Part shown: positions 1,419 to 25,449 of the stretch, one piece after another | How positions within the stretch are numbered: position 1 is the stretch's first letter | Layout of the letters: each line of letters opens with the position of its first letter | DNA from: a virus | Taxonomy: Duplodnaviria > Heunggongvirae > Uroviricota > Caudoviricetes | Length of the DNA stretch: 25,825 bases | Strand: one strand, 5' to 3' | IMG/VR virus record: IMGVR_UViG_2537561935_000023 | Coordinates: 1 to 25,825 of that record | The notes under the pieces: generated by a model | Database searches by the model: none | Told to the model about the DNA's origin: nothing | Seen by the model: only the letters and a program-made list of their open reading frames with translations | Position numbers and translations under genes: made by a program

Positions 1419-3890
1419 TTAAAAATCAGCCTGACTCGGGATCAGTTTTTGCCAGATAGCTGAAACGTATTTTGCCTGGTAACGAGCGTCATCAAGTGCA
1501 TTATGGCGCTCACCTTCGAATGGGATAGCAGTTCTGGCATCGAAGTCTATGGCTTTCCCCAGCTCAACGATTGTGCGTACATCGCGATCGTTGTAGTAAC
1601 GCCACGGGCAGGGGATCCCCTGCCGCTCGTATGAACGGCGCAAAATAGTGTTGTCGAAGTTGGCTCCATTTCCCCAGACCTGAACAAAAAATTCACCGGA
1701 GTTTTCGTCGATAAATTCCCGCAATTGTAACAGTGCATCATCTAACGGGATTTCATCGGTCATAATGGCAGATTGCGCTTCGCGTGATTGTTTAAGCCAC
1801 CATTTAATGGTGTCCCGATCAATGACTCCGCCAGCAGTTTCCAGATCGATAGTCTTACTAAATTCCGGTCCCATATCTCCGGTTTGCGGATCGAAAAATA
1901 TTGCACCTATTGAGATAATCGGGGCATCGGGATTTTTTCCCATGGTTTCAAGGTCGATCATCAGATGAATCCCCGCTCTGCTGGTGGATGTGAGATTATG
2001 ATGACCGTTCGCCTTAATTAAGGGATCTGACGCCTCGCCAGTTTCACTATCGCTGGCATGATGCTGATTGCCGCCAGTGTTCTCCTTGTGCTGATGCGCA
2101 GTGCCTTCCATTTCCTCCGGATCATTTTCCTGAACTTCAGGCTGATTCTCTCCATCGAATATTTCCTGGTATGTTGCGTCACCCATCACCGCACCACAAT
2201 CAGGGCAGTTGCCGCCACCGCTCTGACCGCAGGCGGTGCAGATCTTTTCCGGTTCCTGTTGCACTACTGGTTCAGGTTGTTTCGTTTCTGGCTCGTTTTG
2301 TTGCGTATTTTGGCTGTTTTGTTCCGCTTTCTGGTCGTTCTGTTCCGTTTCTTGCTGGTTCTGGTTCGCAGAATCGCGGGTCTGGATCCCCTTAACCCAT
2401 TTCGGATCATTCGGGTCGCTAATCCCTTCAACAAATTCACCACGTGATACTGCAAGCAGTTCATCGGCGTCAGGCTGGCTGATATTGGCTGCCTGCATAA
2501 TTTTGTTTACTTCGTCAGCGGTAACTTTTACCGGTTCTGGCTGTGCGGTCGTGTCAGATGCACCAGTATTTTGTTGTGAACCTGAGTATGTACTGTTTTT
2601 GCGGGCGAAATATTCTTCTTTCGTGATTTCAGTAGCCCCGGCAGCCAGCGCCTTATCCAGACCAGAAAGTTTGTTTGCGCGACCGTATTTTTCGCCATCC
2701 TTGTCGGTGAAGAGGAAGTAGAACGGCCCCTCACGCTCTACAGATGGTTCGACTTCCACTTTGCATTCGGTTTTTTCGTTGTCCGGAATTGCCGTTTCCA
2801 CTGCATCAGTTTCTGGTACTGGCGACGAGAGAGTATCAGTTGCGCTCTGATTTGTTCCTTCATCTTCAAACACGCCCTTTGTAGTCAGGTATTCAGTAAT
2901 GTATTTGTTCAGTGCCACAGGATCTTTGTGAATGTCGATCGGACGTCCACGGACAAGGCCAAAAATAGTCTGGCGGTCGTAGCGAAGGGCATCAGGCTGT
3001 TTGCGCATCGATGCCGAGATACGCTTCCAGTCTTCGCGGTCGTTGTCGATAACTTCATTTTTTGCCCAGCGATGGATGCTGCCGTCAATGTTTCCGGCAT
3101 CCACATCACCAGGCCAGAGAGCGTAGGCCAGTTCGTCATCCAGTGTTTTCCATGTCTGCTTGTATTCGCGATGAATGACTGCAGTGACAGGGGAGATATT
3201 TTCTGCTGAGTTTTCAGTGTGCTGTCGGTTGACTCTGGCGCGGGCGAGATCAACAGCAGACGTGTATTTTCCGGTTTCCTTGCGTTCACCTTCGCGACGT
3301 TTTTTCCAGATGCGCATCTCTGCCTGAATTTCGGGCCATTTAGCTCCAGGCTTACATTTATGCTTAACCCACCCGATGGCATGCAACTTAAGTTCTGGAT
3401 ACATGGCGTTAACTTCTGGCATTTTCATCAACGCTTCAACGATATGTCCGTCGAATGTTGCCATGTCTTCCTGCAACAATTCCTGCGCGCTAATCACCAT
3501 ATCAACGGTGATGTTTTCACATGTGTCGAACTTAACCATGACAGCGTTCTGTACTTCAGGGGCCAGCTTGTCAAAAGTGACGTTCATCGGATCTGATTCA
3601 GTCTCAACCGGGACAAAGGAAGCAGACTCCTCATCCCAGCGGTTTTCCTGCATATATTCAGCATCCCAGGAATCGAGGGCAGGGCGGGGTATACCGGGTT
3701 TATCCTCGCAAACAAGAAATTTATAAGCGCAGTCCTGAGCAGCCGGATAATGCTCCAGGAATTGCCAGTGAAATTTTGCGCGGGCGCGACGTTCATCACC
3801 GGCTTCAATGGCAGTGGCTACAGCGACTGCACCTTCTTCCTTTATTGCCTGTTCGTCCGGAATGGCGGCGCAAATAAAGACTTTACTCAT
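1419..3890 (-). CDS. Large prophage exonuclease (823 aa): C-terminal DnaQ-like DEDDh 3'-5' exonuclease domain, central CxxC...CxxC zinc ribbon and Q/N/E-rich low-complexity linker
   Basis: C-terminal motifs MIDLETMG (Exo I, D-x-E), NGANFD (Exo II), HNALDDA (Exo III, H-x4-D); zinc ribbon CTACGQSGGGNCPDCG; repetitive DNA at about 2258-2378 encodes the QNQQETEQNDQKAEQN... linker; GAGG about 11 nt upstream of ATG at 3888-3890. Confidence 0.75.
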   Translation of the reverse strand: MSKVFICAAIPDEQAIKEEGAVAVATAIEAGDERRARAKFHWQFLEHYPAAQDCAYKFLVCEDKPGIPRPALDSWDAEYMQENRWDEESASFVPVETESDPMNVTFDKLAPEVQNAVMVKFDTCENITVDMVISAQELLQEDMATFDGHIVEALMKMPEVNAMYPELKLHAIGWVKHKCKPGAKWPEIQAEMRIWKKRREGERKETGKYTSAVDLARARVNRQHTENSAENISPVTAVIHREYKQTWKTLDDELAYALWPGDVDAGNIDGSIHRWAKNEVIDNDREDWKRISASMRKQPDALRYDRQTIFGLVRGRPIDIHKDPVALNKYITEYLTTKGVFEDEGTNQSATDTLSSPVPETDAVETAIPDNEKTECKVEVEPSVEREGPFYFLFTDKDGEKYGRANKLSGLDKALAAGATEITKEEYFARKNSTYSGSQQNTGASDTTAQPEPVKVTADEVNKIMQAANISQPDADELLAVSRGEFVEGISDPNDPKWVKGIQTRDSANQNQQETEQNDQKAEQNSQNTQQNEPETKQPEPVVQQEPEKICTACGQSGGGNCPDCGAVMGDATYQEIFDGENQPEVQENDPEEMEGTAHQHKENTGGNQHHASDSETGEASDPLIKANGHHNLTSTSRAGIHLMIDLETMGKNPDAPIISIGAIFFDPQTGDMGPEFSKTIDLETAGGVIDRDTIKWWLKQSREAQSAIMTDEIPLDDALLQLREFIDENSGEFFVQVWGNGANFDNTILRRSYERQGIPCPWRYYNDRDVRTIVELGKAIDFDARTAIPFEGERHNALDDARYQAKYVSAIWQKLIPSQADF

Positions 3891-5671: not shown

Positions 5672-6094
5672 GTGGCAAAAGTTTTTACACAAGAAGAGCG
5701 GGAAAAAATTAAAGGGCAGGTTGTTGAACTCGTACGCCGGAGTGGGCGTGAGACGTTACGGCAACTGGAAGTCAAGACAGGTGCGACAAGATATCTGATG
5801 AGCGTTCTCGCAAGAGAGCTGGTTGCCAGCGGCGATGTATACAACTCTGGTTACGGGTTATTCCCGTCTGAACAGGCGCGTAAGGACTGGCAAAATGCCC
5901 GTAAAAAGCTCTCAAGGGCAAAGCTGAAGGAACCATCTGCGGTTGATCCGGACCTTATCTGGTCATTACCTGACGGAGAAATACGTCGTTACGACAGGCG
6001 TCATAATATGATTTGTACTGAGTGTCGTAAAAGCGAAGTTATGCAGCGCATATTGTCGTTTTATCAGGGGGATGTCCGGTATTTATTGAAGTGA
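5672..6094 (+). CDS. Hypothetical protein (140 aa), possibly DNA-binding/regulatory, downstream of the replication gene
   Basis: GTG start with GGAGG about 5 nt upstream; basic, helix-rich N-terminal half; family not recognised. Confidence 0.5.
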   Translation: MAKVFTQEEREKIKGQVVELVRRSGRETLRQLEVKTGATRYLMSVLARELVASGDVYNSGYGLFPSEQARKDWQNARKKLSRAKLKEPSAVDPDLIWSLPDGEIRRYDRRHNMICTECRKSEVMQRILSFYQGDVRYLLK

Positions 6095-6162
6095 CGAGAT
6101 TAAAGTGCATTAGTTCAGATGCAAATTGACATTTTGTGGCACAGGGTAGAGCTAGCGTGGTT

Positions 6163-6186
6163 GTCCGCTTTGTGCCAAGAGCGGAC
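6163..6186. repeat. Palindromic repeat, Y-type copy 1 (GTCCGCTTTGTGCCAAGAGCGGAC)
   Basis: 7-bp inverted arms GTCCGCT/AGCGGAC; 22 of 24 identical to the copy at 7379-7402; lies just beyond the 3' end of the GIY-YIG gene. Confidence 0.7.
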
Positions 6187-6223
6187 TTTGCAAAATGGGG
6201 GTTATTTCAATCAAAACGTAACG

Positions 6224-7168
6224 TCACAACCAGCCGACGCTCTCTCGCCATTTATAATTAGTAACTTTATCATTTTCGCTTATTTTTTTAGATATAGAGC
6301 GCGGCTCTCTTCCTAGATACTCAGATATTTCTATCGGGGACAAATCAAAATCAACAAGCATGACTCTAAGTTTTTCCATTTCCTTTAAAGTCCAAGGCTT
6401 GCCATAATTTTCATAAAGAGATACCTTATGCTCCCTGATAGTTCGCTTTCTCTGAGTTTCACTTTCCCTCTGAAAAATCTCGCTTTTAAATTGTGAACGG
6501 AACTCTTTACAGAAGTTGTTATCAGTTTTTTTGTTATATAGATTGCTAAAAATAAGCTGGGATGCCGGGTCTAAATCAGGTGTGTTAATAATGAAAACTT
6601 TGACCTTTTCCATATAGGGATATTCAATTTTACCCAATATGCTTAATTGCTTTATATTAAAAAAACCTCTCAAATCAAAAGATTTAATGAGCTTTGATTG
6701 GATTACACTTTCAATCCTGCTTGCATTTAAATAACAGTACTTTGCCATTGGAAGGGCCCATACTACCAGTTGAGGAATATATTTTTCTAATGCAATGCTC
6801 TGCCAATCAGTATCAAAGGTTTGGCTTTTTGCTAGCATGTTTTTCGGCAAATCAGAATACATTGTGGTAGATGCCCATATCTTATAATCATTCGCCAAGG
6901 CTTGATAGTATTTTGTGTGGTTATGAATTTTATAAGCTGACATGAAGCGATAAACGTCTTCGTCGTGACCAGCGTCGTAAATTGTTCGATTTCCTCTAAG
7001 ATAACCGTCGTAATGTTCGGTTATCCTTCTACCTACATTACAACTTACCCCAACGTAAACCACACGACTGAAAAGTCCTTTATGGACAATAAGATAAACT
7101 CCGCTACAGCCAGATTTCCTGGCCTCTGATAGAGAACCTAAAAATCTCCATTCCATAATTAAATCCAT
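6224..7168 (-). CDS. GIY-YIG nuclease-domain protein (314 aa) with a C-terminal putative helix-turn-helix region; AT-rich cargo gene
   Basis: N-terminal GVYLIVHKG...VVYVGVS.NVGRRITEHY matches the GIY-(about 10 aa)-YIG + Arg + Glu nuclease core; C-terminal ...WTLKEMEKL...SPIEISEYLGREPRSISKKI looks HTH-like; codon usage and AT content differ from flanking phage genes. Confidence 0.7.
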   Translation of the reverse strand: MDLIMEWRFLGSLSEARKSGCSGVYLIVHKGLFSRVVYVGVSCNVGRRITEHYDGYLRGNRTIYDAGHDEDVYRFMSAYKIHNHTKYYQALANDYKIWASTTMYSDLPKNMLAKSQTFDTDWQSIALEKYIPQLVVWALPMAKYCYLNASRIESVIQSKLIKSFDLRGFFNIKQLSILGKIEYPYMEKVKVFIINTPDLDPASQLIFSNLYNKKTDNNFCKEFRSQFKSEIFQRESETQRKRTIREHKVSLYENYGKPWTLKEMEKLRVMLVDFDLSPIEISEYLGREPRSISKKISENDKVTNYKWRESVGWL

Positions 7169-7336
7169 AATTATTGCTACTGTTTTTGTTTATCATTATT
7201 TTCGTGAAACTTCAACAATTTTATCCAAAAGCTAAGGGCAAAGACTTATATAATTATACTTGTCATCGTTAGCGATTATATAGAGTAGTGGCGCTGACCT
7301 GCTCCCTGGTGATTCACACAGAATGCTGTTAGTAAT

Positions 7337-7360
7337 GTCCGTTCCTCGCTCTCAGCGGAC
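7337..7360. repeat. Palindromic repeat, X-type copy 1 (GTCCGTTCCTCGCTCTCAGCGGAC)
   Basis: Terminal 5-bp inverted arms GTCCG/CGGAC around an asymmetric 14-bp core; 20 of 24 identical to 11550-11573 and 18 of 24 to 9320-9343. Confidence 0.65.
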
Positions 7361-7378
7361 CTTCAGCTCAGTGATATC

Positions 7379-7402
7379 GTCCGCTCTGTGCAAAGAGCGG
7401 AC
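7379..7402. repeat. Palindromic repeat, Y-type copy 2 (GTCCGCTCTGTGCAAAGAGCGGAC)
   Basis: Perfect 9-bp inverted arms with 6-bp spacer GTGCAA (10 bp including flanking C/G at 7378/7403); sits 18 bp after the X-type copy. Confidence 0.7.
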
Positions 7403-7715
7403 GTTGGTATGCAAGAGCCCTCCAAAAGTTGATGGTTGGTTTGCAGGGGGGCTTAAAGAAACTGCACTTATCAAGTTGAAGTTCTGTATTCAGCGAAATC
7501 GTAGCACTCTGACGATAAGTAACTCCGGTACTCCGCTCTTCGATGAAGAACCAGAGTAATCCCCCCGAAAAACCAGCGCATCAAAATTGGATCTTCAGCG
7601 GTAGCTTATCGGCTATCGGAAGTACAGGTGTGGATTCGTGGTGAATTGCTTTGATAATAAACGATTAATACGGAAAAACGCATTAATCATTTATTAGCTT
7701 TTAGTAAACCACAAT

Positions 7716-16022: not shown

Positions 16023-18185
16023 ATGAAATCCATGGACAAAATTTCAACGGGCATTGCCTATGGCACCTCCGCAGGCAGTGCTGGCTACTGGTTTTTACAG
16101 CTGCTCGATAAAGTCACGCCCTCACAGTGGGCAGCAATAGGTGTGCTGGGTATCCGCACCGGCGGGCGCGTGCTGGCGGTAAACAGCCAGACCCGGACGC
16201 TGACGCTCGACCGTGAAATCACGCTGCCATCTTCCGGCACCACGCTGATAAGCCTGGTTGACGGGCAGGGGAGTCCGGTCAGCGTGGAGGTTCAGTCCGT
16301 CACCGACGGCGTGAAGGTGAAAGTGAGCCGTGTTCCTGACGGCGTTGCTGAATACAGCGTATGGGGGCTGAAGCTGCCGACGCTGCGCCAGCGCCTGTTC
16401 CGCTGCGTGAGTATCCGTGAGAACGACGACGGCACGTATGCCATCACCGCCGTGCAGCATGTACCGGAAAAAGAGGCCATCGTGGATAACGGGGCGCACT
16501 TTGACGGCGACCAGAGCGGCACGGTAAATGGTGTCACGCCGCCAGCGGTGCAGCACCTGACCGCAGAAGTCACCGCAGACAGCGGGGAATACCAGGTGCT
16601 GGCCCGCTGGGACACGCCGAAGGTGGTGAAGGGCGTGAGCTTCCTGCTTCGCCTGACCGTGGCAGCGGATGACGGCCGTGAGCGGCTGGTCAGCACGGCC
16701 CGGACGACGGAAACCACTTACCGCTTCACACAACTGGCTCTGGGGAACTACAGGCTGACAGTCCGGGCAGTAAATGCGCGGGGGCAGCAGGGCGATCCGG
16801 CGTCGGTATCGTTCCGGATTGCCGCACCGGCAGCGCCGTCGCGGATTGAGCTGACGCCGGGCTATTTTCAGATAACCGCCACGCCGCATCTTGCGGTTTA
16901 TGACCCGACGGTACAGTTTGAGTTCTGGTTCTCGGAAAAACGGATTGCGGATATCAGGCAGGTTGAAACCAGCGCGCGTTATCTTGGTACGGCACTGTAC
17001 TGGATAGCCGCCAGTATCAATATCAAACCGGGCCATGATTATTATTTTTACGTTCGCAGTGTGAACACCGTTGGCAAATCGGCATTCGTGGAGGCTGTCG
17101 GTCAGCCGAGTGATGATGCATCAGGCTATCTGGATTTTTTCAAAGGCGAGATAGGGAAAACCCATCTGGCTCAGGAGCTGTGGACGCAGATTGATAACGG
17201 TCAGCTTGCGCCTGACCTGACTGAAATCAGGACGTCCATAACGGATGTCAGCAATGAAATAACACAGACCGTCAATAAGAAACTGGAAGACCAGAGTGCA
17301 GCGATCCAGCAGATACAGAAGGTTCAGGTTGATACAAATAATAACCTGAACAGCATGTGGGCAGTGAAGCTGCAGCAGATGCAGGACGGACGCCTTTATA
17401 TTGCGGGTATCGGTGCCGGTATTGAGAACACCCCTGACGGCATGCAGAGTCAGGTGCTGCTGGCAGCAGACAGGATTGCGATGATTAATCCTGCGAATGG
17501 CAACACAAAGCCGATGTTTGTTGGTCAGGGCGATCAGATATTCATGAATGAAGTGTTCCTGAAACGCCTGACGGCCCCCACCATTACCAGCGGCGGTAAT
17601 CCTCCGGCATTTTCCCTGACATCAGACGGGAGACTGACGGCGAAAAATGCGGATATCAGTGGCAGTGTGAATGCGAACTCAGGAACGCTCAACAATGTCA
17701 CGATTAACCAGAACTGTACGATTAAGGGCATGCTGGAGGCGACCCAGGTCAGAGGAGATTTCGTTAAAGCTGTATCAAAAGCCTTCCCGAAAAAAGTCGG
17801 TACGTGGGGTAACACGGAAACACCAAACGGTACGGTTACAGTAACCATCAGCGATGATCATAACTTTGACCGCCAGATTATTATTCCGCCCATTATTTTT
17901 AACGGTATAGCGTATGACGATCCGGGGAGCGGAAATAACCCAGGAGGCACGCGATACACGGGTTATGGTTTTGAAGTTCGCAAAAACGGCGTATTAATCG
18001 CATCCAGAGAAACTAAAGGGGCCATTCCCGGTAGTTACAGTGCAGTTATTGATATGCCGAGTGGCAGGGGAAGCGTCACTCTGGAGTTTAAGATTTTCCA
18101 GAAAGGCAATCAGGGGGCAGGCAATATCACCGACTGTACGGTGATTGTGACCAAAAAAGCGGCTTCCGGCATCAGTATTCGTTGA
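16023..18185 (+). CDS. Chimeric ORF: N-terminal about 43 aa of a phage 21-type pinholin fused in frame to the C-terminal about 677 aa of a lambda J-type host-specificity protein (deletion remnant)
   Basis: N-terminus [43 protein letters not shown] matches the S21 pinholin N-terminus as recalled; from about nt 16152 the protein is collinear with the lambda J C-terminal half (e.g. ...[40 protein letters not shown]...); GGAGGTGAGG SD. Confidence 0.8.
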
Positions 18186-18651: not shown

Positions 18652-20357
18652 TGTATGAGCAAAAAGCTGGCCTTGCTAATACTGACCTAAACACCCTTAC
18701 CGGTGAATATTCTGGTTTCTATCAACAACCAACGAGCGCTTACGCAACAGAAGAGTTAAATTACCCAATCGGTCTGGCGGGCGCTTTAATAGTGCTCCAA
18801 ACGAGAGCCAACACTGCTTCTTCCTGCGTTCAGGTGTACCACCCTTATAATAATCCGGGAATTACTTATAGACGAATATATGAAGGAGGTAGCGGTACCT
18901 GGTCTGAATGGAAGAGAGATGTATCAACAGAAAGGGTTGAAGAGGGAAAAGAAACAACTTACGTATATTCTACGTATTCTTCAGGCGCACCACGCTTACA
19001 GGTTTCCAAATCTGGTTTGTGGGGTTGTCATAATGGCACTGGCTGGTTGCCATTAGCTGTTGGGCAAGGAGGTACAGGTGCGACAACAGTAGAAGATGCG
19101 CGAAACAACTTAAGTCTTGGCGAAAGTAGCGCAGTTAAATTTAAAAACCTTACTTTAACCGAAGCGCTCGACACGACATTAGGACTGCTTACAAAAACAG
19201 GACGAGACTGGAACGCTCAGCATACTGATAACGTCGACAAATTTAGACCAATTGCAGGCAGTACAAACGGCCCGGCAGGCTCTATGGTTCTTGGCGGCAT
19301 TCATGTTCAATTTAGTAAAAATTATGCTGTGCAGTTCGGAGGCCGCAATTCCGGTTTTTGGGGAAGAACAATTGAAAATGGAACGACGCAGGAATGGAAG
19401 AAATTACTAACAGTAGACGATCTCAATTCATCTACCGATCTTGCTGTCAGGTCATTAACCACATCTAACCCGATAAAATCTGGCGGAGGGCGGATTGATG
19501 TCCTTGGAAGCACGTCAGACTATAGCAAAATGGATTGCTTTGTACGTGGGTTTGATAGCACCGGTAATTCTCTCGCGTGGGCGTTGGGTTCATCAGTCGG
19601 CGTAAGTAAGATGCTGTCGCTAAAAAATTTCTTTAGCGGAGCTGAGATACTGCTAAATGGTAATGACGGCGCGGTTCAACTCAAAACAGGTGCTGTTAAC
19701 GGTGCTAAAGCGCAGGCGCTCACTATCAACAAGGATGAGGTTAACTCAACTGTTGATTTAACTCTTACAAAACAAACAGGGACTGGCAATCGTTTTGTTT
19801 TACAGAACTTAGGTAATACAGAACTACCATTTGCTGTCAAGGTGTGGGGTTCAGGTGATCGACAAAACGTTTTTGAGGTTGGAACGTCTGCCGCGTATCT
19901 GTTTTATGCTCAAAAAACATCGTCAGGTCAGCTGTTTGATGTAAACGGTGCTATTAACTGTACAACACTGAATCAGTTATCAGACCGCGAGCTGAAAGAC
20001 AATATTCAGATTATCAGTGACGCAACCGAAGCTATCCGTAAAATGAACGGGTACACCTACACACTTAAGGAAAACGGACTGCCTTACGCTGGTGTTATTG
20101 CACAGGAAGCAATGGAGGCAATACCGGAAGCGGTAGGCTCATTCACTCATTACGGTAAAGAGTTGCAGGGACCAACGGTTGACGGCAATGAATTACGTGA
20201 AGAAACACGTTATCTGAATGTTGACTACGCCGCCGTGACGGGCTTACTTGTTCAGGTCGCCCGTGAAACAGATGATCGCGTTACCGCGCTGGAAGAAGAA
20301 AACGCAGAATTAAAACAAAGATTATCTGCAATTGAGGCGGCGCTTGCCTCTAAATAA
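18604..20357 (+). pseudogene. 5'-truncated side tail fibre gene with C-terminal intramolecular-chaperone (S74-type) domain
   Basis: Tail-fibre motifs GGTGATTVEDARNNL and TIEQARANL; C-terminal ...SDRELKDNIQ...MNGYTYTLKENG...VIAQEA...LEEENAELKQRLSAIEAALASK typical of auto-cleaving chaperone domains; no native start, and the only ATG (18582) lies in lom-derived sequence. Confidence 0.7.
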
Positions 20358-20361
20358 TATT

Positions 20362-20386
20362 AAGGGGCTGTGCGCCCCGTTTTATT
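20362..20386 (+). terminator. Rho-independent terminator after the tail fibre remnant
   Basis: GGGGC-tgtgc-GCCCC followed by GTTTTATT. Confidence 0.55.
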
Positions 20387-20393
20387 GGGTAGG

Positions 20394-20687
20394 ATGAAAA
20401 TGGGTATAACACCTTTCCTTCATGCACTTTGTGCTGTGGCTGCGCAGATACTGGTGGGGCTTTTTACCGGAAACTGGGTTTACGGAGCGATAGCCAGTTG
20501 TACGTTCTTCATTGCGGGCGAACACACCCAAGCATAATATCGCTGGATTGAAATGTTCGGGCATGGCAAGCGGATTAACATGCCGTGGTGGGGCGGTTTT
20601 GATCCACGCGCATGGGATGTGGCAAGCCTGATGGATTTTGCTGTGCCGATGGTAGCGTGTCTTCTGATCTGGCTGTTGATCCGTTGA
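20394..20687 (+). pseudogene. Small hydrophobic protein gene interrupted by an in-frame TAA (about 45 + 50 codons)
   Basis: MKMGITPFLHALCAVAAQILVGLFTGNWVYGAIASCTFFIAGEHTQA-stop-YRWIEMFGHGKRINMPWWGGFDPRAWDVASLMDFAVPMVACLLIWLLIR; both halves share one frame and hydrophobic character. Confidence 0.45.
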
Positions 20688-20696
20688 ACATAAAAA

Positions 20697-20730
20697 GCCG
20701 CAGCAACTTGCCATGGCAGGATACTGCGGC
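20697..20730. terminator. Hairpin between the convergent pseudogene (+) and RT gene (-); likely terminator for the RT operon
   Basis: GCCGCAG ... CTGCGGC 7-bp stem enclosing the palindrome TGCCATGGCA; on the minus strand it is followed by TTTTTA. Confidence 0.45.
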
Positions 20731-20794
20731 TGGTTTGTGAGTTTAAATAGTGTGTTTATTGCGATATATTTTAATGACTTAATGGATTACATAT

Positions 20795-22165
20795 CTATGA
20801 TATTCCTGAAATATCCTCTTCAAGCTCTTTTACTGATTTCGCAATTTTAAATTTAAACTTCCTCTCTATTTCACTATTGCTAAGTTTTTTTTCCTTCTCT
20901 TTACCTATCCACATAGAAACAAGTTCTCGTTTCTGAGATATATGTAGATTGTCAAAGTTAGGTATGTATTTAAAAGTCTCCGCTCTACCTCTGCGGAGTT
21001 CATAGAAAGTTTTAATCAAAGATTTTGGTTTTATTTCTGATGAAAGGCCGAATCGGCGGATAAGATTATTGATAGTATGATTAACAGAGCGAAGTTGAGC
21101 TGTTGAGGTTATTTGTGAGAAGTACGATACCCATCCCAATCGTTTACCTTCAAACACACATCCCGTAATTCTGAGATTTAGTTTCCACTGACAATATGCA
21201 ACAGCTCGTTCTTTATCACGCTTACTTTTAGCTTGTAGTAGAGCGTGCCTATATGCAGTAAAAATTTTTGCTAAGGATGACTCAAATCTAAGAATGCTCT
21301 CATGTTTTATCAATAATTCTCGATTTTCTATGTGGTATCCCAAAAAGTTAAAACTTTCATCCAAACTGCCTACTTTGGATTTTGAGTTCTCTTCATTTAA
21401 TGGATGTGGGTTTAAATTTAATGATTGAAGCTTATCAATGATATGAGAAGCTATTTTTGTTGCTTGATATTTTGGTGTTAAAATAAGAATGTCATCAACG
21501 TATCGCATGTACCATATGTCATGCATTTTATTGATTTCATCATCGAAATTAGATAGTGATATTTCAGCTAAAATGTTTGATATCGCTAATCCCTGAGGTA
21601 CTCCTCTGGTATTATTAGGGATACCTTTGCTTCCTGTGGTTCCACTTACAGTAGGCACGATTAATGATGATGTTATTAACTGTCTAATTTCTTTTTTTCT
21701 AATTTTATTTTTTATTGCATTAATTATCAATTTATGTTCAATTGAAGGATAGAAACTTTTAAGATCTATTTTTGCATATTCAGCATATAGACTGTTGTTT
21801 AATGCTTCTTTCAATGAGTCAATTACTGTATGTGGTAGTTTTAATCTGGACTTAGGATATATTTCCGTAAGGCATTCACAGAGAGCTCTAAGAGTAATTC
21901 TGTCCCTAGCAGTTGGTATGGAAATCTGTCTGGGTGTAGAGTTAGCGCCTTTAGATATTAATTTTTCTTTATATGCTGTAAATTTGTAATTGCCAGAATT
22001 AACCTTTTCAAAAATGAAAGTGATCTCATTTTTTATTGTCAAATCAAGTTTTGATGGGCGAATCCGATCTATGCCAATCGCTCCTGATTCTTTGATTTTT
22101 TCAGAGTATACTTTTAGAAGATTTTTTTTCGAGAATGACTTTTTAAAAATTCTGCTTGCAGTCAT
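20795..22165 (-). CDS. Reverse transcriptase (456 aa), defence-type/retron-like, with about 200-aa C-terminal extension
   Basis: RT motifs read directly: R.ISIPTARDRITLRAL (motifs 1-2), KIDLKSFYPSIEH (motif A), GVPQGLAISNILAEI (motif B'), YMRYVDDILIL (YxDD motif C), LNLNPHPLNEENSKSKVG...FLGYHI (motif D/E); AT-rich; first ATG at 22163-22165 (ORF-track start 22171 is TTG); 23-nt overlap with the upstream gene. Confidence 0.85.
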   Translation of the reverse strand: MTASRIFKKSFSKKNLLKVYSEKIKESGAIGIDRIRPSKLDLTIKNEITFIFEKVNSGNYKFTAYKEKLISKGANSTPRQISIPTARDRITLRALCECLTEIYPKSRLKLPHTVIDSLKEALNNSLYAEYAKIDLKSFYPSIEHKLIINAIKNKIRKKEIRQLITSSLIVPTVSGTTGSKGIPNNTRGVPQGLAISNILAEISLSNFDDEINKMHDIWYMRYVDDILILTPKYQATKIASHIIDKLQSLNLNPHPLNEENSKSKVGSLDESFNFLGYHIENRELLIKHESILRFESSLAKIFTAYRHALLQAKSKRDKERAVAYCQWKLNLRITGCVFEGKRLGWVSYFSQITSTAQLRSVNHTINNLIRRFGLSSEIKPKSLIKTFYELRRGRAETFKYIPNFDNLHISQKRELVSMWIGKEKEKKLSNSEIERKFKFKIAKSVKELEEDISGIS

Positions 22166-22694
22166 AGTCAATCCAAAGATATATTAATGGGAGTATATAA
22201 AGTGCGGCAGTAATAAATATTCGAAGTAATATCCATAAAATAACAATTATTTTTTCTTTTTGTGTGGGGATCCTCGTCTTAAGTCCAACTTGAGTTACCC
22301 TTGAAATTTTATCATCTATGTCACGGTGATTCTCAACCTCATTGAGCAAATTAAAATATTTTTCTTTCTGTTCAAGAGATAACTGTTGACTGGTGGTAAT
22401 GTCAAAATAGAGTCGCTGTAGTGCAATATAATTCCTTCTCATGGCTATTGCTCGACCACGAAAATCTAGGTTAGATACGATCAGAGAAATACCCAGTAGA
22501 GCCACTGAAAGTATCGCCGCAACGACATCTGTATTATCTCCTAGAACCTTTGGAAATCGCAACGTTACAATTGAAAGTACCGCACTCAATATAGCATACC
22601 AAACGAGGATAAATTGAGAGTGTTTTTCAAGCCATTCTAGTCGATGGTGCGCTTGGATACGTGCTTTATATGTAAACCAAATATTGTCATGCAT
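22143..22694 (-). CDS. Small membrane protein (183 aa), SLATT-like, with an N-terminal two-helix hairpin and a C-terminal TM segment; putative effector partner of the RT
   Basis: Hydrophobic helices FILVWYAILSAVLSIVTL, VVAAILSVALLGISLIVSNL and IIVILWILLRIFITAALYILPLIYLWI; AGGA SD 7 nt upstream of ATG; 3' end overlaps RT start; SLATT assignment is inference from topology and context. Confidence 0.7.
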   Translation of the reverse strand: MHDNIWFTYKARIQAHHRLEWLEKHSQFILVWYAILSAVLSIVTLRFPKVLGDNTDVVAAILSVALLGISLIVSNLDFRGRAIAMRRNYIALQRLYFDITTSQQLSLEQKEKYFNLLNEVENHRDIDDKISRVTQVGLKTRIPTQKEKIIVILWILLRIFITAALYILPLIYLWIDYDCKQNF

Positions 22695-22699
22695 AAAAG

Positions 22700-22900
22700 A
22701 TCCTTTTTAAAAGCGGAAGGGGCAGGATATATTGGAACCGTTGAACATCCTGCCCGGCAGGATCAGTGAGCATAAGCTCAACAGTAAAATATTACTGTTC
22801 ATTATCAGAGCCGCCCTTGCATGCGCAAGAGGAAAAACCTGCCCCATCCCTTTGAATTATTACAATTTAATGATCTTAAAGTCAATACAAGTGAATGGTG
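22700..22900 (-). ncRNA. Candidate structured non-coding RNA/leader upstream of the SLATT-RT operon
   Basis: No ORF; dense nested inverted repeats: GGGCAGGAT (22720-22728) / ATCCTGCCC (22747-22755) / GGCAGGAT (22757-22764), GGGGCAGG (22719-22726) vs CCTGCCCC (22838-22845), ACAGTA-aaatat-TACTGT (22781-22798), CTTGC-atgc-GCAAG (22816-22829). Confidence 0.3.
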
Positions 22901-22916
22901 TCCAGAGATGATGAAC

Positions 22917-23165
22917 TTAATGAACAAACCACTCGTCAGCAGACTCCCAGGTATCTTTCAGAGTCTCCTGAACAAAAGTTTTAGCTGAATCTTTATCAGC
23001 GGTGCGCGTAACAGAAAGGCCATCGTTGCTGGTGGCTTTTACGATCACTTCTACATCGTCATAACGTTTACTGATGCGTCGGGTTAATTCTTCCTTTAAC
23101 GCATCCACAGCACCGGTTGGCATTTTAGTCATTTTTTCTTTGGCTATGCAGATTTCAATACGCAT
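22917..23165 (-). CDS. dinI: DinI-family SOS protein (82 aa)
   Basis: MRIEICIAK...AVDAL..EL.RRI...LSV......D......[15 protein letters not shown] collinear with E. coli DinI as recalled; GGGGA SD. Confidence 0.85.
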
Positions 23166-23177
23166 AAAAGTCCCCTA

Positions 23178-23225
23178 CACTGTATTTGTATACAGTATTA
23201 TTTTTAACTGTATGGATAAACAGTG
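23178..23225 (-). promoter_or_regulatory. Two tandem LexA (SOS) boxes in the dinI-like promoter
   Basis: Box 1 at 23178-23197 caCTGTatttgtatACAGta (17 of 20 to consensus TACTGTATATATATACAGTA); box 2 at 23206-23225 aaCTGTatggataaACAGtg (CTGT-N8-ACAG). Confidence 0.75.
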
Positions 23226-24323
23226 TCAAGAGGTCTTATTTCTGCTCCTTTGGAGTTCTTCAAAACGATTATGTAAAGATTTCGGATACAGTTCGGTATA
23301 TACCTGCCATAGCACGTTTAATGAACGATGCCCTGTAACCTGAGCGACTTCCTCAATACTAAAACCAGCCTCAAATAAGCGACTTGCCCCTTCTCTACGC
23401 AAATCATGGTATCTCAGATCTTTAATACCTAATTTGCTTCTTACCCTCTGAAATCCTGCGGTAACAGAAGTGCTGTTATATGGAAAAATGAATTCTGATT
23501 TTTTGGGTTGTCGCTGGACGATATCCCAGGCTTCCCCAAGCAAGGCAACTTTCATATGGTTGCCTTCCTTTTTACGTGGATCTTTCCTGTCTCTTACTAG
23601 TATAGATTTTTGTTCCTGGTCGAGATCTTCCCATCGTAACCGGCATACTTCTCCGATTCGCATACAGGACCACACAGAAAATTTGAGGATATCAACGAAC
23701 GGAATTTTTGAGCATTTATGAGTAGATCGTTGTTGAAGGCCTTCAATGAGCATGTTCAGTTCATCAGATGCTGGTCTACGATTACGACGGTTTGATTTAC
23801 CAATCAAACCGAGTTTAAGTAGATATGGACGAGCGCTTTTCGCCGGGTTTGATGTGTAATTGATTCCGTATACAGGTTTTGCCGCATCCAGAACACTGCC
23901 AAGATAACTAACATCGTGGCTGACTGTTGCTGGGCCTGCACCAGCGTTGTTTCTTAGCCTGCAATGTTCAATTACGTCATTTTCTGTCAGTTCAGATAGT
24001 TTGATCGCGGAGATGTCACTATCCATAAGCAGTTCCAGCACATATCTTTTAGTACGGCCTGCTTTACCTCCGGCATTTGGGTCATTTAAATATTTGTGTA
24101 GTAAGTCACGGACTGTAAGTCCGTCAACAGCATTTGATGATGGAATGCCATATAGATCTAATTCCATCACTTTCTGTGCGCCCCATGTTTTGGCATGAGC
24201 ATGTTTAGGGAATGTTTTGCTTTCCCTGTAAGTGATAACACCTTTTTCTTTGATAATCACATTACAGCGATAGCGTGGTGTGCCATCGGATTTTAGTCGT
24301 TTCTCTATGTTATAGTACGCCAT
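23226..24323 (-). CDS. int: Tyrosine integrase (365 aa) adjacent to and divergent from dusA: dusA-associated integrase type
   Basis: C-terminal tyrosine-recombinase motifs (...RYHDLRREGASRL...VTGHRSL..L.VY); GAGG SD; 5' end about 90 bp from the dusA reading frame. Confidence 0.85.
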   Translation of the reverse strand: MAYYNIEKRLKSDGTPRYRCNVIIKEKGVITYRESKTFPKHAHAKTWGAQKVMELDLYGIPSSNAVDGLTVRDLLHKYLNDPNAGGKAGRTKRYVLELLMDSDISAIKLSELTENDVIEHCRLRNNAGAGPATVSHDVSYLGSVLDAAKPVYGINYTSNPAKSARPYLLKLGLIGKSNRRNRRPASDELNMLIEGLQQRSTHKCSKIPFVDILKFSVWSCMRIGEVCRLRWEDLDQEQKSILVRDRKDPRKKEGNHMKVALLGEAWDIVQRQPKKSEFIFPYNSTSVTAGFQRVRSKLGIKDLRYHDLRREGASRLFEAGFSIEEVAQVTGHRSLNVLWQVYTELYPKSLHNRFEELQRSRNKTS

Positions 24324-24456
24324 TACACGACCTCGTTATTTCGGGTTCCCATAAAGCGTGGGAACCTGTGCGGGAACCTAACGCGAGAAAAATAGCCTGA
24401 AATGTTCAAAAATGCACGATAATCCTGAAACACAGAAAACTAATCAAACCAGCGTG

Positions 24457-25449
24457 ATGCCTGAAAAAACTGGCGCTTACTGGAGTTCTCGGTTTAGCAT
24501 TGCTCCTATGCTCGACTGGACGGACAGACATTGCCGCTATTTCTTGCGTCTGCTTTCCCGCAATACGTTGCTGTATACCGAAATGGTGACCACAGGGGCG
24601 ATTATTCACGGTAAAGGTGATTACCTGGCGTACAGTGAAGAAGAACATCCGGTAGCGTTGCAACTCGGCGGTAGCGATCCGGCGGCGCTGGCACAGTGTG
24701 CGAAGCTGGCAGAAGCGCGTGGATATGATGAGATCAACCTGAATGTCGGCTGCCCGTCTGACCGGGTGCAGAACGGCATGTTTGGTGCGTGTCTGATGGG
24801 TAATGCGCAGCTGGTTGCCGACTGCGTGAAAGCGATGCGCGATGTGGTGTCGATTCCAGTGACGGTGAAAACGCGTATTGGCATCGATGACCAGGACAGC
24901 TATGAATTTCTCTGCGATTTCATCAACACCGTTTCCGGCAAAGGCGAGTGTGAGATGTTTATCATCCACGCACGTAAAGCCTGGCTTTCGGGGTTAAGCC
25001 CGAAAGAAAACCGTGAAATCCCGCCGCTCGATTATCCGCGTGTGTATCAACTGAAGCGTGACTTTCCGCATCTGACAATGTCGATTAACGGTGGTATCAA
25101 GTCGCTGGAAGAGGCCAAAGCACACCTGCAACATATGGATGGCGTGATGGTCGGGCGCGAGGCGTATCAGAATCCGGGTATTCTGGCGGCGGTAGACCGG
25201 GAGATCTTTGGTTCCTCGGATACCGATGCCGATCCAGTGGCGGTAGTGCGCGCCATGTATCCGTACATTGAGCGTGAACTCAGCCAGGGGACGTATCTCG
25301 GCCATATTCCCCGGCATATGTTGGGCTTGTTCCAGGGTATTCCTGGCGCGCGGCAGTGGCGGCGTTATTTAAGTGAAAATGCCCATAAAGCGGGTGCAGA
25401 CATTAATGTGCTGGAACACGCGCTCAAACTGGTGGCGGATAAGCGTTAA
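24457..25449 (+). CDS. dusA: tRNA-dihydrouridine synthase A (DusA), 330 aa from ATG 24457; the open frame extends upstream to 24412 into element-derived sequence
   Basis: Near-identical over most of its length to E. coli DusA as recalled (…[17 protein letters not shown]…NLNVGCP…HARKAWL…); the N-terminal about 25 residues differ from K-12 as recalled. Confidence 0.9.

What the first reader, a model, noticed from the sequence alone, without database searches (positions are those of the whole stretch)
20795..22916. AT-rich operon pairing a SLATT-like membrane protein with a reverse transcriptase: candidate RT-based anti-phage system
Two overlapping minus-strand genes (23-nt overlap) encode a 183-aa protein with an N-terminal two-helix membrane hairpin and C-terminal TM segment, then a 456-aa reverse transcriptase with intact catalytic motifs (KIDLKSFYPSI, GVPQG, RYVDD) and an about 200-aa C-terminal extension. 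The pair is strongly AT-rich relative to flanking prophage and host DNA, sits in an integrase-proximal cargo position and follows a structured 220-bp leader. The architecture resembles retron (RT + 2TM effector) and UG/DRT defence RTs, but the gene order (membrane protein upstream of RT, leader upstream of both) and the extended RT C-terminus do not obviously match the canonical layouts I can recall, so this may be an uncharacterised variant.
Basis: partly seen in the sequence, partly recalled or inferred. Interest (0 to 1): 0.85.

Follow-up and report, generated by a model that had tools for sequence, protein, structure and literature searches.

The report
Known DRT10 anti-phage reverse transcriptase system
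This is an intact copy of DRT10, a phage-defence system already studied in E. coli: a small RNA, a membrane protein and a reverse transcriptase that makes telomerase-like repeat DNA, so the sighting is real but not new.

Summary
Two overlapping minus-strand genes (SLATT 22143-22694; RT 20795-22165) lie in AT-rich DNA behind a 222-bp leader, between a prophage tail-fibre gene and dinI-integrase-dusA.

It is an RT-based defence system, but not an uncharacterised one.
- The RT matches PADLOC RT_UG17 end to end (E=1e-158). The membrane protein matches the RT-associated SLATT model (E=1.5e-56) and Pfam SLATT_5.
- UG17+SLATT is DRT10, described in three bioRxiv preprints (2025-2026). ncRNA-SLATT-RT is its canonical gene order.
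- The locus is almost the published model system Eco_3_DRT10. It shares the 456/458-aa start-codon ambiguity and the C-terminal priming serine S456. Its 137-nt ncRNA (22713-22849) fits every published nucleotide number.
- I confirmed the ncRNA independently: a covariance model found it upstream of SLATT in 13 of 13 gammaproteobacterial relatives, with 96% of cells paired and 17 compensated pairs.

The one difference is two natural substitutions in the RNA template (CAACGGUUC, against CAAUGAUUC in the published system). These predict a (GAACCGTTG)n cDNA.

About 3.5% of complete E. coli genomes carry the locus. Novelty: already known. Interest is low.

The parts
22856..22885 (-). Sigma-70-type promoter of the ncRNA (TTGACT, 18-nt spacer, TG-extended AATAAT). 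It places the transcription start at about 22849.
   Evidence: The promoter scan scored 10 of 12 with a TG extension. The sequence is 100% conserved in five E. coli variants of the leader. The predicted start coincides with position 1 of the 137-nt ncRNA numbering of Tang et al..
22713..22849 (-). DRT10 ncRNA, 137 nt. It has a basal stem SL1 (nt 1-12 pairing with 124-135), SL2 (19-36), Loop A (about 37-50, containing U43 and G44), SL3 (51-70), SL4 (71-82), SL5 (87-103) and Loop B, the template loop (104-123).
   Evidence: MFE -57.2 kcal/mol, z=-4.6. Covariance model R1 finds a full-length homologue just upstream of SLATT in 13 of 13 gammaproteobacterial loci, E=2e-10 to 3e-21. RNAalifold on an independent MAFFT alignment recovers the same five helices. 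In that alignment 96.1% of cells are paired, against 49-55% when partners are slid, and 17 pairs show changes on both sides. The numbering fits the published U43, G44, G86, G104, U105-U106, C107, G111, C116, A117, U119 and A120-U123. Rfam 15 has no family for this RNA.
22735..22743 (-). Predicted cDNA template A-B (ncRNA nt 107-115, 5'-CAACGGUUC-3'). The predicted repeat unit of the cDNA is 5'-GAACCGTTG-3'.
   Evidence: It is positionally homologous to the Eco_3 template CAAUGAUUC (published cDNA motif GAATCATTG). It differs at nt 110 (U to C) and nt 112 (A to G). E. coli CE10 carries the published allele.
22731..22734 (-). A' realignment element (nt 116-119, CAAU). C116 is the published initiation site.
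   Evidence: The spacing CAA-N6-CAA gives a 9-nt period. An A-B-A' direct repeat with a 10-11-nt period is present at the same place in 11 of the 13 homologues. Published mutagenesis and a dGTP-bound structure bear on C116.
22143..22694 (-). SLATT effector gene, 183 aa, SLATT_5 family. It has an N-terminal two-helix hairpin and a C-terminal TM. An AAAGGA ribosome-binding site lies 7 nt upstream of the ATG.
   Evidence: Pfam SLATT_5 E=1.3e-28. PADLOC RTasSLATT E=1.5e-56. NCBIfam SLATT_5 136 bits against a cutoff of 60. Hydropathy segments at 25-52, 54-79 and 146-177. There is no solved structure.
20795..22165 (-). UG17 (DRT10) reverse transcriptase, 456 aa from the ATG. YVDD is at residues 222-225 (21491-21502). 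A C-terminal helix spans about 430-453, and the terminal S456 (codon 20798-20800) is the priming residue.
   Evidence: PADLOC RT_UG17 E=1.2e-158 over 3-458 of the protein and 1-429 of 429 profile positions. S456, R371, K385, Y388 and YVDD are invariant in 24 homologues of 59-84% identity. The AF2 model has pLDDT 83.8 with a C-terminal helix at 430-453.
20692..20730 (-). Intrinsic terminator of the operon: a 10-bp GC-rich stem (GCCGCAG...CUGCGGC) followed by UUUUU.
   Evidence: Fold -21.3 kcal/mol, z=-3.3. The stem is conserved downstream of the RT stop in four other E. coli loci, but only two of them keep the U-run. It appears as palindrome I2.

Best explanation
The locus is an intact DRT10 (UG17) defence system of the Eco_3 type, carried as cargo between the tail-fibre genes and the integrase of a defective lambdoid prophage at dusA. 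It has three parts: a 137-nt ncRNA with its own promoter, a SLATT_5 membrane protein, and a 456-aa reverse transcriptase.

Steps shown experimentally for the near-identical Eco_3_DRT10, and inferred here by homology:
1. Two RT monomers bind one pseudo-symmetric ncRNA.
2. The monomer on Loop B starts DNA synthesis from the hydroxyl of its own C-terminal serine (S456), opposite C116.
3. It copies nt 115 to 107 and stops at C107, a boundary measured from the SL5 anchor (R371 contacting G104).
4. The nascent 3' end then unpairs and realigns on A' (nt 116-119).
5. Repeated cycles give kilobase-long, protein-linked, single-stranded tandem repeats.

In this window the template reads CAACGGUUC, so I predict (GAACCGTTG)n. 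Realignment would use three Watson-Crick pairs plus one G:U wobble.

Defence requires the ncRNA, RT catalysis and SLATT.

My inference for the last step: cDNA with a free 3' end is kept low by host ExoI (SbcB). When phage infection disturbs ssDNA metabolism, the cDNA or the RT-cDNA conjugate passes a threshold. It then activates SLATT, which damages the membrane and aborts the infection.

SLATT and RT are probably transcribed by read-through from the ncRNA promoter, because only 18 nt separate the ncRNA 3' end from the SLATT start codon. This too is inference.
For: Family assignment:
- Full-length RT_UG17 and RTasSLATT profile matches. SLATT_5 passes curated cutoffs.
- Near-identical RT and SLATT sequences are catalogued as UG17 loci 457 and 495 in Tang et al. 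Table S1.

Link to Eco_3_DRT10:
- The Eco_3 RT is described as 458 aa in NCBI, corrected to 456 aa, with S456. This ORF shows exactly the same TTG/ATG situation.
- The ncRNA fits all published nucleotide numbers.
- The published template allele occurs in E. coli CE10, whose RT differs from the window's at 6 of 456 residues and whose SLATT differs at 4 of 183.

Independent comparative support:
- ncRNA homologues lie upstream of SLATT in 13 of 13 relatives with 58-70% RT identity, with strong covariation.
- An A-B-A' repeat sits at the same place in 11 of the 13 homologues.
- S456, R371, K385, Y388 and YVDD are invariant. G86 and G104 are invariant.

Published mechanism.

Activation rather than neutralisation of SLATT:
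- The UG17-A model system of Sanchez-Nieto et al. is toxic in a sbcB deletion strain only when RT, ncRNA and SLATT are all intact.
- RT-dead mutants that still carry SLATT are viable and lose defence.

The locus looks maintained: the exact 456-aa protein is recorded on 1000 or more contigs (the counter's limit), and the locus is in 188 of 5426 complete E. coli genomes.
Against: - Nothing was measured on this locus. Every biochemical step is transferred from a homologue.
- I could not retrieve the sequence of OKX54664 (Eco_3), so the identity is inferred from length, numbering and the published motif.
- The template differs at two positions from the tested one, and Loop B has two G residues rather than one.
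- The window allele also creates a perfect GUUC...GUUC direct repeat with an 8-nt period. This could in principle disturb the register.
- For Eco_3, cDNA was reported to fall on infection. That fits a neutralisation model better than my activation model. The two laboratories disagree on this point, and how SLATT is controlled is unresolved.
Confidence: 0.95

Rival explanations
1. It is a retron: an RT plus a two-TM effector, with the leader encoding msr/msd and producing branched msDNA.
For: The layout of an RT with a small membrane protein resembles retrons with 2TM effectors. Some databases name the protein 'putative retron-type reverse transcriptase'. There is a weak NCBIfam retron St85 match.
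Against: The retron St85 score is 58.7 bits against a cutoff of 235, while RT_UG17 scores 526 bits. No inverted repeats of the a1/a2 kind flank the leader, and there is no Rfam retron msr hit. The leader has the DRT10 five-stem architecture with covariation. The RT has a conserved C-terminal priming serine and is 456 aa.
Confidence: 0.01
2. The RT belongs to a mobile group II intron or to a diversity-generating retroelement.
For: The nearest solved structures by sequence and by fold include group II intron and G2L4 RTs and a DGR RT. TIGR04416 gives E=5e-42.
Against: TIGR04416 scores 144 bits against a cutoff of 300. No intron RNA domains or any other Rfam family were found in 20500-23400. There are no template/variable repeat pairs, and the longest direct repeat is 19 nt. 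No Avd or target gene is present. The gene is always paired with SLATT and the ncRNA in relatives.
Confidence: 0.01
3. It is a DRT10 locus by descent but is no longer active, because it sits in a decaying prophage or because the two template substitutions break repeat addition.
For: The host prophage is defective, with a holin::J fusion ORF at 16023-18185. In some genomes an IS2 lies next to the locus or the neighbouring dinI is frameshifted. The window's template allele has not been tested.
Against: Both ORFs, the promoter, the ncRNA stems and the terminator are intact. All residues shown to be essential are present: YVDD, R371, K385, Y388 and S456. The window allele is the commoner natural one: 9 of 11 IMG/VR hits, and it occurs on three protein backgrounds. 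The published U110A substitution, and changes in the B segment, were tolerated. The C110 change keeps realignment through a G:U wobble.
Confidence: 0.05
4. It is DRT10, but the cDNA acts as an antitoxin. On this view it holds SLATT inactive in healthy cells, and loss of cDNA during infection releases SLATT.
For: Tang et al. saw Eco_3 cDNA fall after Bas18 infection and proposed this possibility.
Against: RT-dead (YVAA) and ncRNA-deleted constructs that still carry SLATT grow and merely lose defence. Toxicity in sbcB-deleted cells needs active RT and ncRNA. An 83.5% drop in cDNA yield (deletion of U105) left defence almost unchanged.
Confidence: 0.12

Closest known systems
Eco_3_DRT10 (E. coli UG17 system; RT accession OKX54664; Tang et al. 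bioRxiv 10.1101/2025.10.16.682844; Ramirez et al. bioRxiv 10.64898/2026.06.29.735271)
   Same: Same gene order (ncRNA, SLATT, overlapping RT). Same RT length and TTG/ATG start ambiguity. Same C-terminal S456. A 137-nt ncRNA with five stem-loops and identical numbering of all published functional nucleotides. An associated tyrosine recombinase. The strain CE10 version, which carries the published template, is 98.7% (RT) and 97.8% (SLATT) identical to the window's proteins.
   Different: There are two substitutions in the template (nt 110 U to C, nt 112 A to G). The predicted repeat is therefore GAACCGTTG rather than GAATCATTG, A and A' match at 3 nt plus a wobble rather than 4 nt, and Loop B has two G residues. 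The proteins differ from the CE10 version by a handful of residues. This allele has not been tested experimentally.
Eco_1_DRT10 and the UG17-A system of Escherichia sp. E3659 (Sanchez-Nieto et al. bioRxiv 10.64898/2026.04.29.721553)
   Same: Same family and tripartite logic, protein-primed tandem-repeat cDNA, and a SLATT effector. SbcB control was demonstrated in E3659.
   Different: These are different RT lineages (about 444-445 aa, with a tyrosine primer in Eco_1). Their ncRNAs are unrelated in sequence (134-143 nt, six stem-loops) and the repeats are 7-8 nt. Published covariance models work only within a subtype. Consistent with this, my model did not detect an ncRNA in seven alphaproteobacterial loci whose RTs are 31-34% identical to this one. 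I could not assign the window to the A, B or C subtype from the text.
DRT9 (UG28)
   Same: A Class 2 UG RT, with an upstream structured ncRNA of similar shape and protein-primed synthesis of long repetitive ssDNA. It is among the best structural matches (ranks 3-7).
   Different: DRT9 makes poly-dA from a U-tract, primes from internal tyrosines, forms hexamers and does not need SLATT. The PADLOC Drt9 score here is only 69 bits.
Telomerase (TERT plus telomerase RNA)
   Same: Repeat-addition processivity from a short internal RNA template flanked by a realignment sequence, with a structural 5' template boundary.
   Different: Telomerase primes from a chromosomal DNA 3' end rather than from protein. 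TERT is much larger and has extra domains. Its function is chromosome-end maintenance, not immunity. I did not test the proposed evolutionary link here.
Retrons with transmembrane effectors, and DRT3 (UG3+UG8 with an accessory SLATT)
   Same: Defence RTs that work with a non-coding RNA and are found with membrane or SLATT proteins in prophage and defence islands.
   Different: Retrons make branched msDNA from an msr/msd RNA flanked by inverted repeats. DRT3 needs two RTs. Neither feature is present here.

Membership tests
DRT10 (UG17 RT + SLATT + ncRNA) | The RT belongs to the UG17 group | tested here: met
   PADLOC RT_UG17 E=1.2e-158, 526 bits, covering the whole profile. The next best model is Drt3a at 127 bits. 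Near-identical sequences are listed as UG17 loci in Tang et al. Table S1.
DRT10 (UG17 RT + SLATT + ncRNA) | An adjacent, co-oriented SLATT_5 gene, overlapping the RT gene in the predominant arrangement | tested here: met
   SLATT_5 and RTasSLATT matches. The overlap is 23 nt. A SLATT gene lies upstream of the RT in 17 of 20 related loci.
DRT10 (UG17 RT + SLATT + ncRNA) | [quoted passage not shown] | tested here: met
   Fold z=-4.6. Covariance-model hits in 13 of 13 gammaproteobacterial relatives. Covariation: 96.1% of cells paired and 17 compensated pairs, with 0 of 500 shuffles reaching these values.
DRT10 (UG17 RT + SLATT + ncRNA) | An A-B-A' direct repeat in the template loop, next to SL5 | tested here: met
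   CAA-N6-CAA at nt 107-118, homologous to Eco_3 CAAU-GAUUC-CAAU. The pattern is conserved in 11 of the 13 homologues while the B segment varies.
DRT10 (UG17 RT + SLATT + ncRNA) | Catalytic YVDD, a C-terminal priming residue (Ser or Tyr) after a conserved helix, and the RNA-anchoring residues R371, K385 and Y388 | tested here: met
   All are present and invariant in 24 homologues. The model has a helix at 430-453 followed by GIS-COOH.
DRT10 (UG17 RT + SLATT + ncRNA) | [quoted passage not shown] | not testable with these tools
   This needs cDNA sequencing and plaque assays. It has been shown only for homologues.
Retron | A retron-clade RT, and an msr/msd RNA flanked by inverted repeats with a priming guanosine | tested here: not met
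   Retron St85 model 58.7 bits against a cutoff of 235. No flanking inverted repeats. No Rfam retron family hit.
Group II intron | An RT/maturase above the family threshold, lying inside intron RNA domains | tested here: not met
   TIGR04416 144 bits against a cutoff of 300. GIIM 14.5 bits against 23. No intron RNA family was detected.
Diversity-generating retroelement | A template/variable repeat pair and an accessory Avd gene | tested here: not met
   The longest direct repeat in 20300-23300 is 19 nt at 84% identity. The neighbours are SLATT, dinI and integrase.
DRT3 (UG3 + UG8) | Two different RT genes acting together | tested here: not met
   There is a single RT gene. NCBIfam Drt3a scores 112.6 bits against a cutoff of 200.

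The most novel reading that the evidence does not exclude
The window carries the commoner natural template allele (CAACGGUUC). It differs from the only allele studied (CAAUGAUUC) at two linked positions, and I found no intermediates among the 17 locus copies I could read (the window, 5 other E. coli genomes and 11 IMG/VR contigs). If the SLATT effector or a phage counter-measure reads the repeat sequence itself, the two alleles would be functionally distinct 'specificities' of one defence system. Template dimorphism would then be a trace of an arms race rather than neutral drift. The extra GUUC...GUUC repeat (8-nt period) in this allele might also lower repeat precision.
Probability: 0.12. Interest if true: 0.35.

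Novelty: already known. Interest (0 to 1): 0.15.

Why it matters
DRT10 itself is important biology. It is a bacterial reverse transcriptase that makes telomerase-like repeats from an internal RNA template and has been proposed as a relative of TERT. That work has already been done and published on a system almost identical to this one.

What this window adds is modest:
- It is a clean natural example of the cassette as prophage 'b-region' cargo at dusA.
- It gives evidence that about 3.5% of complete E. coli genomes carry the locus.
- It shows that RefSeq and Rfam still annotate neither the ncRNA nor the system name.
- It records that the template is dimorphic in nature. This fits the published finding that defence tolerates different repeat sequences.

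As annotation, the two genes should be labelled Drt10 RT and Drt10 SLATT, and the 137-nt ncRNA should be added.

Tried and rejected
- Rfam scan of 20500-23400 at E<=1: only a chance microRNA-family hit inside the RT gene. There is no retron, intron or DRT RNA family.
- PDB sequence search: there is no DRT10 entry in this copy. The best hits are group II intron RTs at E=3e-14, and SLATT has no hit at all. Foldseek gave the same generic RT neighbours plus DRT9 and DRT2.
- I tried to find the Eco_3 ncRNA and plasmid sequences in Tang et al.'s supplementary tables. The stored file is truncated and holds only the Eco1 and Eco2 ncRNA rows, so the link to Eco_3 rests on indirect evidence.
- Subtype A, B or C of Sanchez-Nieto et al. 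could not be assigned from the text.
- The 8-nt GUUC...AACG...GUUC register as the template: rejected as the main product. The published 5' boundary is fixed at C107 by the distance from the SL5 anchor, and G104 is engaged by R371 and G86.
- A 14-nt near copy of the template downstream of the RT (20678-20691): it is not conserved in relatives and lies just past the terminator, so it is chance.
- MFE pairs between nt 38-44 and nt 110-116: dropped from the model. They involve the template and do not survive in the CE10 allele or in RNAalifold.
- Coevolution of the template allele with SLATT or RT residues: only I161T (SLATT) and K300R (RT) track the TA allele, and only in two fully read lineage-linked loci. 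No conclusion is possible.
- Alphaproteobacterial UG17 loci (31-34% RT identity) gave no hit with my ncRNA model. This is consistent with subtype-specific ncRNAs, not evidence that the RNA is absent.
Full report

Yes. ORF listing gives a 183-aa ORF at 22143-22694 (-). It also gives an RT ORF ending at 20795 that starts at a TTG (22171, 458 aa) or an ATG (22165, 456 aa).

The RT motifs KIDLKSFYPSI, GVPQG and RYVDD are all present. Pfam RVT_1 covers residues 74-281. Hydropathy finds three membrane-length segments in the small protein, at 25-52, 54-79 and 146-177.

GC content is 0.32-0.34 in the two genes, against 0.44-0.50 in the flanking windows. The leader between the dinI-like gene (22917-23165) and the SLATT start is 222 bp.

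A tyrosine integrase (23226-24323) and dusA (24412-25449) follow. An identical arrangement is annotated in E. coli AR434.

**2. What is it?**

Profile searches settle the family.
- The RT matches PADLOC RT_UG17 over the whole profile (E=1.2e-158, 526 bits). The next best model, Drt3a, scores 127 bits.
- The small protein matches the PADLOC 'RT-associated SLATT' model (E=1.5e-56), Pfam SLATT_5 (E=1.3e-28) and NCBIfam SLATT_5 above its cutoff.
- Models for group II intron maturase, retron St85 RT, Drt2, Drt3a and Drt4 all score far below their curated cutoffs.

UG17 was linked to SLATT and predicted to be defensive by Mestre et al. 2022 (PMC9226505). It was then shown to be a defence system and named DRT10 by Tang et al. 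(bioRxiv 10.1101/2025.10.16.682844). Sanchez-Nieto et al. (bioRxiv 10.64898/2026.04.29.721553) and Ramirez et al. (bioRxiv 10.64898/2026.06.29.735271) studied it further.

The predominant published architecture is ncRNA, then SLATT, then an overlapping RT.

**3. How close is it to what has been studied?**

Very close.
- RT and SLATT sequences nearly identical to the window's are in Tang et al.'s Table S1 as UG17_locus_457 and UG17_locus_495.
- The methods state that the model system Eco_3_DRT10 has an RT (OKX54664) annotated with two extra N-terminal residues, so that S458 in NCBI is S456 in the paper. The window's ORF has exactly this 458/456 ambiguity and ends in ...DISGIS.
- The exact 456-aa protein is recorded on 1000 or more contigs (the counter's limit), and the 458-aa form is in E. 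coli chi7122.

**4. The leader is the DRT10 ncRNA.**

*Promoter and fold.* A promoter-like site (TTGACT, 18-nt spacer, TG-AATAAT; 22885-22856) places the start near 22849. The 137 nt from 22849 to 22713 fold into the following elements (-57.2 kcal/mol, z=-4.6):
- a GC-rich basal stem;
- four inner stem-loops;
- a 14-nt single-stranded stretch;
- a 20-nt loop next to the last stem-loop.

*Numbering.* Taking 22849 as nucleotide 1, every nucleotide named in the papers falls on the right base: U43 and G44 in Loop A, G86, G104, the U105-U106 linker, C107, G111, C116, A117, U119 and the A120-U123 linker.

*Independent test.* I built a covariance model from five E. coli variants. I searched it against 20 loci that encode relatives of the RT, taken from other species' genomes.
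- All 13 gammaproteobacterial loci (RT identity 58-70%) have a full-length hit on the same strand just upstream of SLATT (E=2e-10 to 3e-21).
- The seven alphaproteobacterial loci (31-34% identity) have none. This agrees with the published statement that ncRNA models work only within subtypes.

*Covariation.* A separate MAFFT alignment of the hits, folded by RNAalifold, recovers the same five helices and leaves the template loop unpaired. In it, 17 of 36 pairs are compensated. On that alignment 96.1% of cells are paired, against 49-55% when partners are slid by 1-3 columns. No shuffle in 500 reaches the observed covariation.

Rfam 15 has no family for this RNA, and RefSeq annotates nothing under it.

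**5. Template.**

The published Eco_3 cDNA motif is GAATCATTG. It is copied from CAAUGAUUC (A-B, nt 107-115), which is followed by CAAU (A', nt 116-119).

The window reads CAACGGUUC-CAAU, which is two substitutions at nt 110 and 112. E. coli CE10 carries the published allele. Its RT and SLATT differ from the window's at 6 of 456 and 4 of 183 residues.

Among 11 IMG/VR contigs holding this ncRNA, 9 have the window allele, 2 have the published one, and none is intermediate. The window allele occurs on three protein backgrounds.

The 5' boundary is set by distance from the SL5 anchor, not by sequence, and U110A was tolerated. I therefore predict a 9-nt repeat (GAACCGTTG)n, with realignment through three Watson-Crick pairs and a G:U wobble.

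The window allele also creates a perfect GUUC...GUUC repeat with an 8-nt period. I consider that register unlikely, because G104 is held by R371 and G86.

Across the 13 homologues, 11 keep an exact direct repeat at this place with a 10-11-nt period (UCAA-type, or CAAU in Buttiauxella), while the B segment varies.

**6. Proteins.**

In 24 homologues of 59-84% identity, YVDD, R371, K385, Y388 and the terminal S456 are invariant. These are the residues shown to be needed for catalysis, SL5 and SL1 anchoring, and protein priming.

An AlphaFold2 model (pLDDT 83.8) shows fingers, palm and thumb plus a helical C-terminal domain. That domain ends in a long helix (430-453) just before the serine.

Foldseek aligns the model over most of its length with G2L4 and GsI-IIC group II intron RTs, DRT9, DGR and DRT2 RTs. 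The 'C-terminal extension' is therefore the usual thumb plus the priming domain.

No DRT10 or SLATT structure is in the PDB copy available here.

**7. Mechanism.**

Shown for the near-identical Eco_3 system:
- Two RT monomers bind one ncRNA.
- The monomer on Loop B primes from S456 opposite C116 and copies to C107. The product then realigns on A' and is extended again, giving kilobase-long protein-linked ssDNA repeats.
- The monomer on Loop A makes only an abortive product of about 10 nt.
- ncRNA, RT catalysis, S456 and SLATT are all required for defence.

Shown for another DRT10 (the UG17-A system of Sanchez-Nieto et al.):
- Host ExoI (SbcB) suppresses a toxicity that needs RT, ncRNA and SLATT.
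- A phage SSB-like protein is needed to trigger defence.

Unresolved: how the cDNA controls SLATT. I favour activation of SLATT when cDNA accumulates (about 0.6). My reasons are that RT-dead constructs carrying SLATT are viable and merely defenceless, and that loss of SbcB is toxic only with active RT. The alternative is neutralisation of SLATT by cDNA (about 0.12), which Tang et al. raised after seeing cDNA fall on infection.

For this window, every one of these steps is inferred by homology.

**8. Operon ends and context.**

Only 18 nt, including an AAAGGA ribosome-binding site, lie between the ncRNA 3' end and the SLATT ATG. SLATT-RT transcription therefore probably reads through from the ncRNA promoter; this is inference.

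A GC-rich hairpin followed by a U-run at 20692-20730 ends the operon. The hairpin stem is conserved in four other E. coli loci, but only two of them keep the U-run.

The cassette lies between the tail-fibre genes and the integrase of a defective lambdoid prophage at dusA. In other strains the same dinI-ncRNA-SLATT-RT cassette is the terminal cargo of prophages beside prfC, with no adjacent integrase. Tang et al. found the associated recombinase dispensable for defence.

The locus is present in 188 of 5426 complete E. coli genomes, always on the chromosome.

**9. Rivals.**

- Retron, group II intron, DGR and DRT3 each fail a defining feature.
- An inactive remnant is unlikely, because all parts and all essential residues are intact and the allele is common.

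**10. Verdict.**

The claim of a possibly uncharacterised variant is not supported. This is DRT10, essentially the published Eco_3 model with a natural two-base template variant. Novelty: already known. Interest is low (0.15).

Noticed in passing
window 7716-9065 (-), within the AT-rich stretch 6000-9000: A 449-aa ORF is a full-length match to the PD-T7-1 anti-phage protein (PADLOC PDLC04073, E=7e-157). The same prophage therefore carries a second defence gene. Its neighbours are ORFs with no family match (6224-7168 -, 10345-11325 +) and a 202-aa integrase fragment (9377-9985 +), which suggests a small inserted island.
   Followed up: partly
window 16023-18185 (+): One 720-aa ORF joins the N-terminus of a P21-type holin S (residues 5-43) to the C-terminal two thirds of tail-tip protein J. 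This is the scar of a large deletion that removed the lysis, head and most tail genes, so the prophage is defective.
   Followed up: partly
window 23178-23197, upstream of the dinI-like gene 22917-23165 (-): A LexA-box-like palindrome (TACTGTATACAAATACAGTG, 17 of 20 to consensus; 0 of 100 shuffles give a match) sits just downstream of the best promoter-like site for the dinI-like gene. The terminator scan found none on this strand between dinI and the DRT10 promoter, so SOS-driven read-through into the DRT10 cassette is conceivable.
   Followed up: no
window 22731-22746 (-), and loci L002, L032, L033: The ncRNA template is dimorphic in nature. CAACGGUUC is the window's allele (9 of 11 IMG/VR hits). 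CAAUGAUUC is the allele of the published Eco_3 system (2 of 11 IMG/VR hits, and E. coli CE10). No intermediates were seen. The window allele also forms a perfect GUUC...GUUC direct repeat with an 8-nt period.
   Followed up: partly
hits H1-H3 (NZ_CP082087.1, NZ_CP182198.1, NZ_OW848980.1), junction equivalent to window ~22916: In three complete genomes an IS2 element (an extra 1.3 kb) lies under the match. From the leader hit (query 2-222) it appears to sit at the dinI/leader junction, just upstream of the DRT10 promoter.
   Followed up: no
loci L001 and L004 (prfC-side prophages), and L003: The dinI-like gene next to the cassette is frameshifted in some strains. One strain has a 180-aa SLATT with a different C-terminus and a duplicated dinI. 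The same cassette also occurs at a second chromosomal site (beside prfC) with no adjacent integrase.
   Followed up: partly
window 1419-3890 (-): There is an 823-aa RecE-like exonuclease (PHROG 2082, full length; Rv2179c-like 3'-5' exoribonuclease domain at residues 642-813). It is followed by replication O-like and DUF977 genes, the early region of the lambdoid or Rac-like prophage.
   Followed up: no
window 22713-22849 and public annotation: RefSeq labels the genes only as 'reverse transcriptase domain-containing protein' and 'SLATT domain-containing protein', and annotates nothing over the ncRNA. Rfam 15 has no DRT10 ncRNA family, and NCBIfam has Drt2-Drt4 models but nothing matched as Drt10.
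   Followed up: yes
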